Shown here: one piece after another, positions 12,076-15,000 of the stretch | Position numbering within the stretch: the stretch's first letter is position 1 | How the letters are laid out: each line of letters begins with the position of its first letter | Assembly (NCBI GenBank): GCA_028279705.1 | Contig: JANQNF010000012.1 | Span: 96,163 to 160,162, forward strand | Origin: an archaeon | Lineage (GTDB): Archaea; Aenigmatarchaeota; Aenigmatarchaeia; QMZP01; JAFGSV01 | DNA: 64,000 nt | Reading direction: 5' to 3' | Program-made: the position numbers

Positions 12076-15000
12076 CCACTTAACGCTTTCGCTACGGCAC
12101 TGACAACCCCCTTGAGATTGCCAATGTCTAGTGGGCATCGTTTACAGCCAGGACTACGGGGGTATCTAATCCCCTTTGCTCCCCTGGCTTTCGTCCCTCA
12201 CCGTCGGATCCGTTCTGGCATGGCGCCTTCGCCACCGGTGGTCCCCAAAGGATTACAGGATTTTACCCCTACCCCTTGAGTACCCCATGCCTCTCCCGGT
12301 CCCAAGTCCAGAAGTTTCCCTAGCAAGCCCCGTAGTTAGCTACGGGATTTCACTAAAGACTTTCTGGACCGGCTACGAACGCTTTAAGCCCAATAAACGT
12401 GGTCATCACTCGTGGCGCGGGTATTACCGCGGCGGCTGGCACCCGTCTTACCCACCACTTATTCTCGAAGCTTTTTACACTCCGCAAAAGCATCCCCTAA
12501 ACGGGAATGCACTCCAGATCCCTTCCTCACACTTGCGTGCATTGGGAAAGTTTCGCGCCTGCTGCGCCCCGTGGGGCCTGGATTCTTGTCTCAGAATCCA
12601 TCTCCGAGCTTCCTCTCTCAAGGCTCGTACGGATTATCGGCTTGCCAGGACGTTACCCTAGCAACAACCTAATCCGGTGCAGTCCAATCCTCGAGCACCG
12701 AGGCTTTGGATAAGAATACATTCCAGTATTTCTTATCTATCTGGTATTAGCTTCAGTTTCCCGAAATTATCCCAGACTCGAGGGCATGTTAACTACATGT
12801 TACTGAGCTTTCTGCCCTAACATTCGAAGAATATCAAGACTTGCATGGCTTAGTCGGATCCGGATAGCAATGACCTCCGGCAGGATCAACCGGAATTGAG
12901 ATTTTGGCGGTTCTCCTTTATTTTCCTTTAAAACTTACACAAGGAACATACTTCAAACTCGAAAACATGATTTCCAAGCTCACATCTCATGTTCATCGCT
13001 TAGTCGCCTAAACTCGCAACTATTTATTATCCAATGGTATTTATAAAGGTTCGCGTTTCATGCTGAAATTGAGCACTGATTTAAAAGCAGAAAATGATGA
13101 AATAAAGTTTATGTTTATCAGAGGATTTTTTGATTCAGAGGGTTCTGCCGTAGTTTCTAGCAAAACAGTCAAGGCTGCCAATAAAAATCTAACAATATTG
13201 AAATCCATCAGAAAATTATTGAATGATACGGGTTTCAATTCAGAGAACATTAGCATTAATCGCAGTCATGATAACGTATATGCATTGTGTATTTACAGGA
13301 AAAACTTACGCTTCTTCAAGGAAAGAATAGGTTTCAGCATAAGAAGGAAAAATGAAAAGTTGAATAGCATCTTGAGGGCCGCACCCGGGATTTGAACCCG
13401 GACCAGGGGCTCCACAGGCCCATATGCTTACCAATTACACCAATGCAGCCATAGCTTCTATCTATTGAACTGGATATAATTTAAAATCTATCGTTATTGC
13501 TTATTTAATCTGCCATGTTCGCCACCGTGCCTATTTGTTATTTTCCGGCATTTCTCAGCTTATCGTCCTTGAATATGTCGGGAATCGGATACTTCTTGAA
13601 CTTCTTGAGTATGTTCTTTCCTGAAGCTACCCTTGCCATCGCTTCTGCAGTCAGTTCAGCGTCATCCAGCGCGTTGTGTGCCCCATCTCTGGGCGGAATT
13701 CCCACCATGTGAAGAACAGCATCAAGGCTCCATGGCATCCCTGCTGTCAGTGGGGATATTTCATGGAGTTCGACTATTTTTTTATTAAACGGCCACTTCA
13801 TCTTGTTTTTCTTGAAATTCAGTTCCAGGAATCCTATGTCAAACCATATATTGTCCCCTGCGATTGTCTTATCTCTTATACCCTGCATCCACTGTACAAA
13901 AGCCTCAAGAAGCTGCTTTGATGTCGGTTTTTTAGGATTCTTTATCTCTTTCTTCGTGAACCCATTTATCTTCAATGCGATATTGCTCACTTCGGCGCCC
14001 TCATCGACCCTGCACTCTCCATAAAAAGTCTTTCCTGGATTTTCAAAGTCGAGAGCGCCTATGCTTACTATGCTGTTCTTGAGAGGCTCCATGCCGGTGG
14101 TTTCTATGTCCACCACTATCATATACATTATCTTTCGCGCATAGGTTTTTATTTCATTGATACAAAATACGATATGAGAGATTACACCGGAAAGGTGAAT
14201 TCTTCTGATGTCAGTGGATTGTTGAGTGATAATAACAAGCTTGTGATCGAAATTGGTATAACTTTCAACAATGAACTTGGAAAATGGGGATTTTATAACG
14301 AAAATGGCGCATGGGAAGATTTCTATTCAGGTAAAAGGAAATAGAGTGCGGGGGGCAGGATTTGAACCTGCGAAAGCACTGAGCTACAGGATATCTAAGG
14401 GCTATCTCATCGAAACCAATGTTTCTCGACACTTAAGATAATCCTCTTAAGTTTGGCATGAAATGACCGTTGTGGTCATATCAACCTGCCCCTTTGGCCA
14501 GGCTCGGGTACCCCCGCACGATTGAGTATTTGGCGCGATTGATTTAAAAATCGGGTAAGAACTTGTGAACCTGGTCCTCAGCCTTCTCGCGCTTCTCCTG
14601 ATGTTCAGTAAGGAACTTTTCAAGCTTTTCTATGAGTATCTGCTTCATCTCACCCGAAAGCATCTTGCCGGATTCGTAGTCTTCCTTGATCTTCTTGATC
14701 TTCTTGTCGTCGGACTCAAACTGCGCATAAAGGTACTGGTAAGAAACATCAACACACGTGTCGCCGCCGTGCTTTCTGTGCTCCTCGACGGTTTCCTTCC
14801 CGCCTGAGAATGCGTACTTGTTGACCTTCTTCTTGATCGATTTCGGATCGTCCGTGAGCGCTATGTAGGATGCGGGGTCAGAGCTTGACATCTTTCCCCC
14901 GCCAAGACCTTTCATGAACTCGTGATATGTCGCTCCGGGAAGCTTGAAACCAAGCTCCTTTTCAAACCTTGCGGCAATGTCTCTTGAAAGCCTTATGTGG

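What the first reader, a model, noticed from the sequence alone, without database searches (positions are those of the whole stretch)
14347..14517. tRNA-Leu(UAA) whose anticodon is a 7-nt micro-exon between two introns
Introns at 30/31 (32 nt, perfect BHB) and 37/38 (53 nt, BHB with one U-U mismatch) isolate ACUUAAG. The canonical 37/38 motif is normally flanked by the anticodon stem, which can form only after the first intron is removed, implying ordered splicing. Multi-intron tRNAs are known mainly from Thermoproteales. Automated tools would probably mis-assign this anticodon.
Basis: partly seen in the sequence, partly recalled or inferred. Interest (0 to 1): 0.7.

Follow-up and report, generated by a model that had tools for sequence, protein, structure and literature searches.

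The report
Two-intron tRNA-Leu(UAA) gene, DPANN archaeon
This is a genuine leucine tRNA gene of a tiny uncultured archaeon whose anticodon sits on a 7-base exon between two protein-spliced introns. That layout is a known kind of archaeal gene disruption, and it turns out to be common in this tRNA among related archaea.

Summary
On the minus strand, 14517-14347 encodes a class II tRNA-Leu(UAA). It is interrupted by a 32-nt intron at 30/31 and a 53-nt intron at 37/38, leaving ACUUAAG as a 7-nt exon.

- **In-silico splicing.** Removing both introns gives an 86-nt tRNA that ARAGORN calls Leu(taa). It is 97.7% identical to a syntenic orthologue.
- **Intron 1.** Syntenic orthologues read ...CAGGACUUAAG without interruption, so the intron 1 boundaries are exact.
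- **Wider occurrence.** A metagenome scan found about 20 distinct genes with the same 30/31 + 37/38 layout. The intron 1 bulge-helix-bulge (BHB) motif covaries strongly across 16 of them.
- **Organism.** It is a DPANN archaeon (Aenigmatarchaeota-like), not a member of the Thermoproteales.
- **Detection tools.** ARAGORN and Rfam miss the gene or mis-assign it.
- **Ordered splicing.** The two BHBs compete for the same bases, and folding of the window sequence agrees with intron 1 going first. This is inference only, and the idea is already published.
- **New lead.** Intron 2 carries a conserved anticodon-complementary UCUUAAGU placed a fixed distance from a covarying K-turn. This looks like a half box C'/D' guide aimed at U34.
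- **In passing.** Some relatives carry four introns in this tRNA.

Verdict: a new member of a known kind, of moderate interest.

The parts
14347..14517 (-). Complete tRNA-Leu(UAA) gene, 171 nt: three exons and two introns
   Evidence: Sequence. In-silico splicing gives a sequence ARAGORN calls tRNA-Leu(taa). It lies in the syntenic position downstream of TrpRS, as in the relatives.
14485..14517 (-). Exon 1, Sprinzl 1-30: acceptor 5' strand, D arm and C27-G30 of the anticodon stem
   Evidence: It is nearly identical to the orthologous exons.
14453..14484 (-). Intron 1, 32 nt, at position 30/31. BHB: the central helix pairs 14490-14487 with 14458-14455, and the inner hairpin pairs 14483-14474 with 14468-14459.
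   Evidence: It is absent from the syntenic orthologues L001, L002, L004, L006, L012, L015, L016, L017, L085 and L086. A homologous intron is present in L106 and about 20 other genes. The BHB covaries.
14446..14452 (-). Micro-exon ACUUAAG: A31, C32, U33, anticodon U34-A35-A36, G37
14393..14445 (-). Intron 2, 53 nt, at the canonical position 37/38. BHB: the central helix pairs 14451-14448 with 14398-14395 (U34.U mismatch), and the inner helix pairs 14444-14436 with 14407-14399.
   Evidence: A 37/38 intron is present in every orthologue examined.
14347..14392 (-). Exon 3, Sprinzl 38-73: A38, anticodon stem 3' strand, long variable arm, T arm, acceptor 3' strand and A73. No CCA is encoded.
14431..14438 (-). 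UCUUAAGU inside intron 2. It is complementary to A31-G37 plus the next A (the first base of intron 2, or A38 once spliced).
   Evidence: UUAAG is present in 29 of 33 distinct intron-2 sequences. The predicted duplex has P about 0.7-0.97 in the unspliced precursor.
14407..14429 (-). K-turn-like module in intron 2: UCGA (D'-like box, 14429-14426), stem GAAAC/GUUUC (14425-14421 with 14416-14412), 3-nt bulge GAU followed by GA (C'-like, 14411-14407)
   Evidence: Both GA dinucleotides and the bulge U are invariant in the 16 aligned genes. The stem covaries. The GA lies exactly 4 nt after UUAAG in 23 of 33 genes.
14543..14550 (-). TTTTTAAA, a TATA-box-like element ending 26 nt upstream of the tRNA 5' end. 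It overlaps the TrpRS stop codon.
   Evidence: Read directly from the sequence. The same box sits at the same distance in L001, L002, L004, L085 and L106. That it acts as an archaeal promoter is inferred.

Best explanation
This is the functional tRNA-Leu(UAA) gene of a DPANN (Aenigmatarchaeota-like) archaeon. It is transcribed from its own TATA-like promoter just after the TrpRS gene, as a 171-nt precursor with two protein-spliced (bulge-helix-bulge) introns.

**Intron 1 (30/31).** It folds into a BHB that borrows G25-A28 and C32-U34. This BHB therefore cannot coexist with the anticodon stem or with the BHB of intron 2.

**Proposed order of events (inferred).** The splicing endonuclease (EndA) cuts intron 1 and an RtcB-type ligase joins G30 to A31. 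The RNA then refolds so that the anticodon stem forms and flanks the relaxed BHB of the canonical intron 2, which is removed next. Cutting one intron at a time also keeps the 7-nt exon from being released as a free oligonucleotide.

**Evolution.** Intron 1 is gained and lost among close relatives, whereas intron 2 is universal in this tRNA lineage.

**Possible second role of intron 2 (inferred, about 40% likely).** It may also work as a minimal box C'/D'-type guide. Its UCUUAAGU pairs with the anticodon loop. A K-turn 4 nt downstream would bind L7Ae/Nop5/fibrillarin so that, by the N+5 rule, U34 is 2'-O-methylated before the guide duplex melts and the intron is spliced.

**Shown versus inferred.** Shown: gene identity, exact intron boundaries, conservation and covariation of the BHB and the K-turn, and synteny. 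Inferred: expression, the enzymes involved, the order of splicing, and the methylation.
For: - **Gene identity.** The cloverleaf and Leu(taa) call after in-silico splicing. The mature sequence is 97.7%, 96.5% and 91.9% identical to L006, L017 and L106.
- **Synteny.** The order DS-TyrRS-TrpRS-tRNA-RNaseT-like exonuclease is conserved.
- **Intron 1 boundaries.** Orthologues without intron 1 define its boundaries exactly.
- **Wider occurrence.** 24 of 27 metagenome hits carry the same double-intron layout, about 20 distinct genes.
- **Intron 1 BHB covariation.** Across 16 genes, 90.8% of cells are paired. There are 58 double-change cells against 19 in shuffles (0 of 500 shuffles reach the observed value), all 8 inner-helix pairs covary, and slid registers collapse to 30-46% paired.
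- **Intron 2 BHB.** The central helix CUUA/U(A/G)(A/G)G is kept in most genes.
- **Promoter.** The TATA-like box is conserved.
- **Assembly.** It is confirmed by an independent contig.
- **Order of splicing.** The two BHBs share bases. In the window precursor the anticodon-stem probability is 0.00, rising to 0.77 (whole molecule) or 0.98 (anticodon arm only) once intron 1 is removed.
- **Guide hypothesis, spacing.** UUAAG-N4-GA is found in 23 of 33 distinct introns.
- **Guide hypothesis, K-turn pattern.** The full pattern occurs in at least 10 introns against 0.16 expected from shuffled tails.
- **Guide hypothesis, covariation.** The K-turn stem covaries and both GA dinucleotides are invariant.
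- **Guide hypothesis, precedent.** Pyrococcus C/D sRNAs are predicted to target the wobble base of tRNA-Leu(UAA), and the tRNA-Trp intron is a C/D guide (PMC7994747, PMC4090602).
Against: - No RNA data exist for this organism, so expression, junctions and order are unobserved.
- EndA, RtcB, L7Ae, Nop5 and fibrillarin are not in the 64-kb window, so the enzyme type is unknown.
- The BHB of intron 2 is relaxed: a U.U mismatch in the central helix and an A.C mismatch in the inner helix. ViennaRNA almost never predicts its central helix, preferring a register shifted by one.
- The folding support for order is strong for the window gene but mixed across 21 relatives.
- Against the guide idea: there is only one K-turn, with no C and D boxes.
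- The guide duplex is only 8-9 bp.
- The boxes are degenerate in the window (UCGA and GAUGAG).
- Two genes have a 6-nt spacing, which would point to C32.
- Three genes have UA in place of GA, and four have no UUAAG at all.
- The stem pairs were partly selected by the parsing rule.
- The fixed spacing could reflect common descent rather than selection.
Confidence: 0.85

Rival explanations
1. The two introns are removed in no fixed order, or intron 2 goes first. The two BHBs are simply alternative conformers that EndA samples, so there is no obligatory pathway.
For: Intron 1's BHB does not need intron 2 to be present or absent; its central-helix probability is 0.19 with intron 2 and 0.23 without it. 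In several relatives the anticodon stem is already predicted with intron 1 in place, for example L096 at 0.75 and L097 at 0.73. Broad-specificity EndAs accept motifs lacking one outer helix (PMC4090602, PMC5829648).
Against: In the window gene the anticodon stem is not predicted at all while intron 1 is present. Cutting all four sites at once would free a 7-nt exon held by very few pairs. The tRNAscan-SE 2.0 authors report that closely spaced introns need sequential removal before the second BHB can form (PMC8450103).
Confidence: 0.3
2. The conserved UCUUAAGU plus K-turn in intron 2 is not a methylation guide. It could be a structural or L7Ae-binding element that helps folding or protects the precursor. 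Or the anticodon complement could be an ordinary anticodon-intron pairing next to an unrelated inherited hairpin.
For: There is only one K-turn and no C/D box pair. The boxes are degenerate. Rfam finds no C/D family here even at E<=10. The spacing varies in 2 genes and the GA is lost in 3. From memory, efficient archaeal C/D RNPs need both box pairs (Tran et al. 2003, not re-read).
Against: The 4-nt spacing puts U34 exactly at N+5 in 23 of 33 genes, although stem sequence, loop size and intron length all vary. The BHB already uses a different 3' segment of the intron to pair with bases 32-35, so the 5' complement needs another reason to exist. U34 of tRNA-Leu(UAA) is a predicted C/D target in Pyrococcus (PMC7994747).
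Confidence: 0.5
3. The locus is a decaying pseudogene, or is not expressed. The real tRNA-Leu(UAA) lies elsewhere in the genome.
For: No transcript data. Only 64 kb of a 278-kb contig could be inspected.
Against: The exons are 97.7% identical to an orthologue while the introns diverge to 58-75%. The cloverleaf is perfect. The BHB covaries. Synteny and the promoter box are conserved. The same layout is kept in about 20 lineages. No other Leu tRNA lies in the window.
Confidence: 0.04
4. The gene has a single long intron and a different anticodon, as ARAGORN -i proposes: tRNA-Ile(GAU) with an 87-nt intron.
For: ARAGORN -i output.
Against: That model gives a class II variable arm to an Ile tRNA. 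There is no BHB at its boundaries (36/123 is absent from both the strict and the relaxed lists). The orthologues read CAGGACUUAAG contiguously.
Confidence: 0.01

Closest known systems
Multiple-intron tRNA genes of Thermoproteales, for example Pyrobaculum islandicum tRNA-Pro(UGG) with introns at 25/26, 37/38 and 56/57 (Sugahara et al. 2007/2008, as summarised in PMC4090602 and PMC4033280)
   Same: A canonical 37/38 intron together with non-canonical BHB introns in one gene. 30/31 is a listed non-canonical site. Closely spaced introns must be removed stepwise before the next BHB can form (PMC8450103).
   Different: The host is a DPANN archaeon with 46% G+C, found in coral and sediment metagenomes. 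Here the two introns leave only 7 nt between them, carrying the anticodon. The same pair of sites is kept for one tRNA across many lineages. Relatives reach four introns per gene, while the papers read state a maximum of three.
Tri-split tRNA-Gly of Caldivirga maquilingensis (Fujishima et al. 2009, as described in PMC4090602)
   Same: The anticodon sits on a very short separate piece (positions 26-37), joined at a non-canonical site and at 37/38 by BHB splicing.
   Different: There the pieces are separate transcripts joined in trans, and the cassette is exchanged between isoacceptors. Here there is one transcript, spliced in cis, with a 7-nt piece covering positions 31-37.
[quoted passage not shown]
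   Same: A canonical-position intron carries sequence complementary to its own anticodon loop next to K-turn boxes, with the wobble base at N+5. The guide pairing and the BHB are mutually exclusive conformers.
   Different: The Trp intron is a complete C/D-C'/D' RNA of about 100 nt with two guides (C34 and U39). Here there is a single K-turn or K-loop in a 40-65 nt intron, with one guide and degenerate boxes. The reviews call the Trp case unique, and activity here is untested.
Trans-acting Pyrococcus C/D sRNAs predicted to target the wobble base of tRNA-Leu(UAA), Leu(CAA), Met and Trp (PMC7994747)
   Same: The same predicted target: ribose of U34 in tRNA-Leu(UAA).
   Different: Those are free-standing sRNA genes. 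Here the candidate guide is in the tRNA's own intron.

Membership tests
Archaeal BHB (EndA-spliced) tRNA intron | Two 3-nt bulges on opposite strands, separated by a 4-bp helix | tested here: met
   Intron 1: GGCA/UGCC, 4 of 4 pairs, with bulges GG|U and AA|A. Intron 2: CUUA/UUAG, 3 of 4 pairs (U.U mismatch), with bulges AG|A and AU|A. Intron 2 is therefore of the relaxed type.
Archaeal BHB (EndA-spliced) tRNA intron | Flanking helices h and h' of at least 2 bp | tested here: met
   Intron 1: h is 3 bp and h' pairs 9 of 10 positions. Intron 2: h is the 5-bp anticodon stem, contiguous only after intron 1 has been removed, and h' pairs 8 of 9 positions with an A.C mismatch after the second pair.
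Archaeal BHB (EndA-spliced) tRNA intron | Removal restores a canonical tRNA | tested here: met
   ARAGORN calls the spliced sequence Leu(taa). It is 97.7% identical to the L006 orthologue.
Archaeal BHB (EndA-spliced) tRNA intron | The structure is maintained in evolution (covariation) | tested here: met
   for intron 1: 0 of 500 shuffles reach the observed value. For intron 2, compensatory changes in h' are seen between the window and L001 and L106, but no formal test was made because the register varies.
Archaeal BHB (EndA-spliced) tRNA intron | Cleavage by EndA and ligation by RtcB, leaving a mature tRNA and a circular intron | not testable with these tools
   No RNA runs are available. EndA and RtcB are not in the window.
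Class II tRNA-Leu (archaeal) | Long variable arm, discriminator A73, a Leu anticodon with U33 and G37, and a standard D and T arm | tested here: met
   structure: 15-nt variable region with the stem AGC/GCU, A73, loop C-U-UAA-G-A, and T loop UUCAAAU.
Box C/D methylation guide RNA | Terminal box C (RUGAUGA) and box D (CUGA) forming a K-turn | tested here: not met
   No such pair exists in the intron or the adjacent exons (read directly). There is no Rfam C/D hit at E<=10.
Box C/D methylation guide RNA | An internal C'/D' K-turn or K-loop | tested here: met
   The pattern is xxGA, then a stem or short loop, then N-R-U-GA. Both GA dinucleotides are invariant, the stem covaries, and position 3b.3n is often U.U. 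In the window the boxes are degenerate: UCGA and GAUGAG.
Box C/D methylation guide RNA | A guide of at least 8-10 nt directly upstream of D/D', with the target nucleotide opposite N+5 | tested here: met
   The duplex with A31 to A38/i1 is 8-9 bp. U34 lies opposite N+5 in 23 of 33 genes and C32 in 2.
Box C/D methylation guide RNA | Assembly with L7Ae, Nop5 and fibrillarin, and 2'-O-methylation of the target | not testable with these tools
   These genes are not in the window, and there are no modification data.
Self-splicing group I or group II intron | A match to the catalytic core | tested here: not met
   Rfam finds nothing in 14250-14620, although the same search detects a group I intron in the LSU rRNA. 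The introns are only 32 and 53 nt.

The most novel reading that the evidence does not exclude
Intron 2 is a minimal, single-K-turn (C'/D'-only) methylation guide built into the pre-tRNA. It directs Um34 formation on its own anticodon. This would be the second intron-encoded tRNA guide after tRNA-Trp, and the first half-size one.

The variable intron 1 would act as a conformational switch. While it is present, the anticodon stem cannot form and the 7-nt exon stays paired to the guide. Its removal flips the RNA into the splicing-competent BHB. Modification and the two splicing steps would thus be forced into a fixed sequence.
Probability: 0.3. Interest if true: 0.7.

Novelty: new member of a known kind. 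Interest (0 to 1): 0.45.

Why it matters
Practical: this tRNA is invisible to ARAGORN and Rfam, or wrongly named by them. The two other intron-bearing tRNAs in the window are also mis-assigned. DPANN genomes annotated with such tools will therefore appear to lack a UUA/UUG decoder. This adds to the incomplete tRNA sets already reported for DPANN (PMC5829648, bioRxiv 10.64898/2026.05.13.725050).

Biological:
- The same pair of intron sites in one tRNA, kept across many uncultured lineages, gives a natural series for testing how EndA handles two overlapping BHB motifs and a 7-nt exon. The series includes genes with and without intron 1, and genes with up to four introns.
- If the K-turn plus anticodon complement is a working guide, intron-encoded tRNA methylation extends beyond tRNA-Trp. 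That would explain why the canonical intron is never lost from this tRNA.

Tried and rejected
- **RNA evidence.** No RNA run holds the locus. Laying the one DNA run only confirmed the assembly.
- **BHB significance from sequence alone.** Rejected as a test, because strict motifs occur in 73% of shuffles.
- **Thermodynamic proof of the second BHB.** ViennaRNA almost never forms its 4-bp central helix in any of 21 genes, and prefers either a helix shifted by one or the guide duplex. Folding therefore cannot confirm or refute the BHB of intron 2.
- **Ordered splicing from folding of relatives.** The result was mixed.
- **Splicing and methylation enzymes in the window.** A Pfam scan of 57 ORFs found none. 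RtcA (RNA 3'-phosphate cyclase), Trm1, TrmI and Pus10 are present.
- **A full C/D architecture.** No C or D box was found in intron 1, in the exons or in a circularised intron (inspection). The UGAUAUGA in intron 1 is part of its hairpin and is not conserved outside close relatives.
- **Taxonomy of the GC-rich L089 family,** which shares the two intron sites.
- **Papers not held.** Sugahara 2007, Clouet d'Orval 2001 and Tocchini-Valentini 2009 could not be read. What I say about them comes from reviews or from memory.
- **False positives of the metagenome pattern.** In L098, L099 and L109 the second ACTTAAG is the copy inside the intron.
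Full report
**What is there.**
The window is archaeal. It holds archaeal SSU and LSU rRNA and RNase P RNA. The finding lies on the minus strand.

Read from 14517 down to 14347, the sequence is:
GCGGGGGUACCCGAGCCUGGCCAAAGGGGCAGG / UUGAUAUGACCACAACGGUCAUUUCAUGCCAA / ACUUAAG / AGGAUUAUCUUAAGUGUCGAGAAACAUUGGUUUCGAUGAGAUAGCCCUUAGAU / AUCCUGUAGCUCAGUGCUUUCGCAGGUUCAAAUCCUGCCCCCCGCA.

Joining the first, third and fifth pieces gives an 86-nt class II cloverleaf. Its features are:
- anticodon stem CAGGA/UCCUG
- anticodon loop C-U-UAA-G-A
- a 15-nt variable region
- T loop UUCAAAU
- discriminator A73

ARAGORN calls this tRNA-Leu(taa).

**Detection by tools.**
- ARAGORN in default mode does not report the gene.
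- The Rfam tRNA model sees only the T arm, at 14 bits against a threshold of 29.
- ARAGORN with introns allowed reports tRNA-Ile(gat) with one 87-nt intron. That is wrong. It gives an Ile tRNA a class II variable arm, has no BHB at its boundaries, and contradicts the orthologues.

**Is it more than chance?**
BHB-like motifs by themselves are weak evidence. With my strict definition (4-bp central helix, two 3-nt bulges, outer helix of at least 2 bp, inner helix of at least 3 bp), 73% of shuffles of this 171-mer contain at least one motif. The real sequence contains six, only one of which is intron 1.

The decisive evidence is comparative. The TrpRS gene immediately upstream (14544-15734) has its best named homologues in Candidatus Aenigmarchaeota and other DPANN MAGs. 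The gene order deoxyhypusine synthase - TyrRS - TrpRS - [gap] - RNase T-like exonuclease is conserved in relatives. The gap always holds the orthologous tRNA-Leu(UAA).

In L001, L002, L004, L006, L012, L015, L016, L017, L085 and L086 the sequence reads ...GGGGCAGGACUUAAG... without interruption. The 32 nt in the window are therefore an insertion whose ends cannot be shifted by even one base. The window's spliced tRNA is 97.7% identical to that of L006, whereas the introns are only 58-75% identical to their nearest counterparts. An independent contig from the coral-metagenome run X1 matches the window exactly across the locus.

**The layout is widespread.**
I scanned metagenome contigs for AAAGGGGCAGG-N(15-45)-ACTTAAG-N(35-65)-ATCCTGT and obtained 27 loci. 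Of these, 24 (about 20 distinct genes) are true 30/31 + 37/38 tRNA-Leu(UAA) genes with the same 7-nt exon. The other three (L098, L099, L109) matched only through the copy of CUUAAG inside the canonical intron.

Several of these loci carry TrpRS, TyrRS or the exonuclease next to the tRNA, so they are the same locus in more distant relatives.

Intron 1 ranges from 15 to 44 nt and almost always ends in UGCC-AA, UGCU-AA or UGCC-AU. I cut the sequences to a fixed-register alignment of 16 distinct genes (A1) and scored the BHB model:
- 90.8% of cells pair.
- All eight inner-helix pairs show changes on both sides: 58 such cells against 19 in column shuffles, with 0 of 500 shuffles reaching the observed value.
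- Sliding the partner strand by 1-3 columns drops pairing to 30-46%.

This is strong evidence that the intron 1 BHB is under selection.

**Intron 2.**
Every orthologue has a 37/38 intron of 35-65 nt. Its last six bases mostly read U(A/G)(A/G)G-NN. This gives the central helix with C32-A35 and the 3' bulge (N, N | A38).

In the window this helix has a U34.U mismatch. The inner helix GGAUUAUCU/AGAUAGCCC has one A.C mismatch. The motif is therefore relaxed. Compensatory differences in the inner helix are visible against L001 (UUGGGUUCU/GGAGCCCCA). I did not test them formally, because bulges shift the register between genes.

**How it most likely works.**
The full BHB of intron 1 uses A22-G24 paired to C32-U34 as its outer helix, and G25-A28 paired to UGCC as its central helix. 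The BHB of intron 2 uses C27-A31/U39-G43 as its outer helix and C32-A35 as one strand of its central helix. The two cannot form together.

In the window precursor, ViennaRNA gives these pair probabilities (whole molecule):

| Element | Intron 1 present | Intron 1 removed |
|---|---|---|
| Anticodon stem | 0.00 | 0.77 |
| Intron 2 inner helix | 0.05-0.25 | 0.44-0.85 |
| Duplex of the 7-nt exon with UCUUAAGU in intron 2 | ~0.72 | 0.08 |

The anticodon-arm-only model gives the same picture: 0.00 to 0.98 for the anticodon stem.

There is also a mechanical argument (inference). If all four sites were cut together, the 7-nt exon would be held by too few pairs to be ligated.

The caveats are real:
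- The same calculation on 21 related genes is mixed.
- The central helix of intron 2 is essentially never predicted by the energy model.
- No RNA data exist.
- EndA and RtcB are outside the window.

The idea itself is established. The tRNAscan-SE 2.0 paper states that some archaeal tRNAs have introns so close together that one must be removed before the second BHB can form (PMC8450103). From memory, Tocchini-Valentini et al. 2009 showed stepwise processing in vitro; that paper was not available to me.

**Expression signals.**
TTTTTAAA lies at 14550-14543. It ends 26 nt before the tRNA 5' end and overlaps the TrpRS stop codon. The same box at the same distance is present in L001, L002, L004, L085 and L106. 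I read this as the archaeal TATA box (inference). No CCA is encoded.

**An unexpected feature of intron 2.**
Besides the 3' segment that builds the BHB, the intron has a second, 5'-proximal segment complementary to the anticodon loop. This segment, UCUUAAGU at 14438-14431, pairs with A31-G37 plus the following A. UUAAG is present in 29 of 33 distinct intron-2 sequences.

In 23 of the 33, a GA follows exactly 4 nt later. After that comes either a 3-8 bp stem-loop whose sequence differs from gene to gene, or a short loop in the closest TrpRS relatives. Then comes a 3-nt bulge ending in U, and a second GA.

In the window the module reads UCGA-GAAAC-AUUG-GUUUC-GAU-GA-GAUA. This is a standard K-turn:
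- a 5-bp canonical stem
- a 3-nt bulge
- tandem G.A pairs
- a non-canonical stem (C-G, U-A, G.U)

In the 16 genes that could be aligned in register (A2):
- both GA dinucleotides and the bulge U are invariant;
- the stem pairs covary (with the caveat that my parser chose the best stem);
- the first non-canonical position is often U.U, as in box C/D K-turns.

With the tails shuffled, the full pattern is expected 0.16 times. It is observed at least 10 times under a deliberately crude parse.

Read as a D'-like box (xxGA) and a C'-like box (RUGA...), the arrangement puts the anticodon complement immediately upstream of D', with U34 opposite the fifth nucleotide. That is the N+5 rule for box C/D guides. 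In L091 and L101 the spacing is 6, which would point to C32.

The known precedents are:
- The pre-tRNA-Trp intron of Haloferax and other Euryarchaeota is a complete C/D RNA guiding Cm34 and Um39. Reviews call it a unique example (PMC4090602, PMC11408192).
- Pyrococcus C/D sRNAs are predicted to target the wobble base of tRNA-Leu(UAA) (PMC7994747).

Against membership:
- There is no C/D box pair and only one K-turn.
- The duplex is only 8-9 bp.
- The boxes are degenerate.
- Some genes lack the motif altogether.

I therefore put the methylation-guide reading at about 0.4. I do not file the intron as a box C/D RNA. It works like half of one, if it works at all.

**Evolution.**
Intron 1 is patchy. 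The relatives closest by TrpRS (L085 at 81%, L086 at 79%) lack it. L106 has homologous versions of both introns, with its exonuclease 72% identical to the window's, against 76% for L085. Relatives instead carry D-loop, variable-arm or T-loop introns.

This matches the picture of rapid intron gain and loss described for Thermoproteales (PMC4033280). It also matches the marked tRNA disruption noted in DPANN lineages whose EndA carries the L3 loop (PMC5829648).

**Comparison with what is known, and verdict.**
- Non-canonical introns at 30/31, genes combining canonical and non-canonical introns, and stepwise removal are all described (PMC4090602, PMC8450103).
- A short anticodon-bearing piece joined at a non-canonical site and at 37/38 is also known in trans, as the tri-split tRNA-Gly.
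- The finding is therefore real and correctly read, but it is a new member of a known kind in a different phylum.
- What adds interest is the conservation of this exact two-site layout for one tRNA across many uncultured lineages, the four-intron relatives, and the candidate half-guide in the canonical intron.

Interest: 0.45.

Noticed in passing
L088:2127-2391, L093:3300-3604, L104:1502-1774, L107:5005-5187 (also L111): These tRNA-Leu(UAA) genes have FOUR introns each: D loop, 30/31, 37/38, and either the variable arm or the T loop. Removing the four segments in silico gives 84-86-nt sequences that ARAGORN calls tRNA-Leu(taa). The papers I could read state a maximum of three introns per archaeal tRNA (PMC4033280, PMC8450103).
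   Followed up: partly
window 26988-27104 (-) and 26161-26264 (-): Two further tRNAs have a single non-canonical intron of 31 nt. By my manual reading they are tRNA-Ser(GCU) with an intron at about 29/30 and tRNA-Val(UAC) with an intron at about 33/34. ARAGORN -i labels both Val(aac). Rfam detects them as tRNA but assigns no identity.
   Followed up: partly
window 10629-12896 (-), ORF 11059-11634 (-): The SSU rRNA gene is about 790 nt longer than the Rfam model. It contains a 191-aa ORF with a LAGLIDADG motif (LAFLAGRFDGDG), so this is an rRNA intron with a homing-endonuclease gene.
   Followed up: partly
window 7790-8036 (-): There is an Rfam group I intron hit (84.8 bits) inside the LSU rRNA gene. 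Group I introns in archaeal rRNA, including an Aenigmarchaeota LSU, are already reported (PMC6125680).
   Followed up: partly
window 6251-6919 (-), 13060-13395 (+), 21047-21889 (+): Three ORFs outside the rRNA genes match LAGLIDADG_3. One lies just past the LSU 3' end. One is a 111-aa fragment overlapping tRNA-His on the opposite strand. One lies directly upstream of, and slightly overlaps, the RNA 3'-phosphate cyclase (RtcA) gene at 21879-22937.
   Followed up: no
L089, L090, L094, L095, L100, L112, L113 (for example L100:41-213): A GC-rich family from peat and bog metagenomes has the same 30/31 + 37/38 sites in tRNA-Leu(UAA), plus an extra insertion in the variable arm. Its intron 2 has no CUUAAG or K-turn. 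The intron 1 central helix pairs 3 of 4 positions. The taxon could not be named.
   Followed up: partly
L001, L002, L004, L086, L093, L096, L104, L105 (D-loop and T-loop introns): Many of the extra introns share motifs of the form (A/G)CCCUUU(U/C)... / ...AAAG(C/G)G... / ...GGAAA. This suggests one mobile intron family inserted at different tRNA positions, as proposed for Thermoproteales. It was seen by eye and was not tested.
   Followed up: no
window 14347-14517 compared with L006 and L106: The window's exons are closest to those of relatives lacking intron 1 (97.7% to L006). Both of its introns are closest to those of L106 (75% and 74%), whose exons are only 91.9% identical and have a different T stem. 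This could reflect exchange of the anticodon-arm cassette or merely uneven divergence.
   Followed up: no
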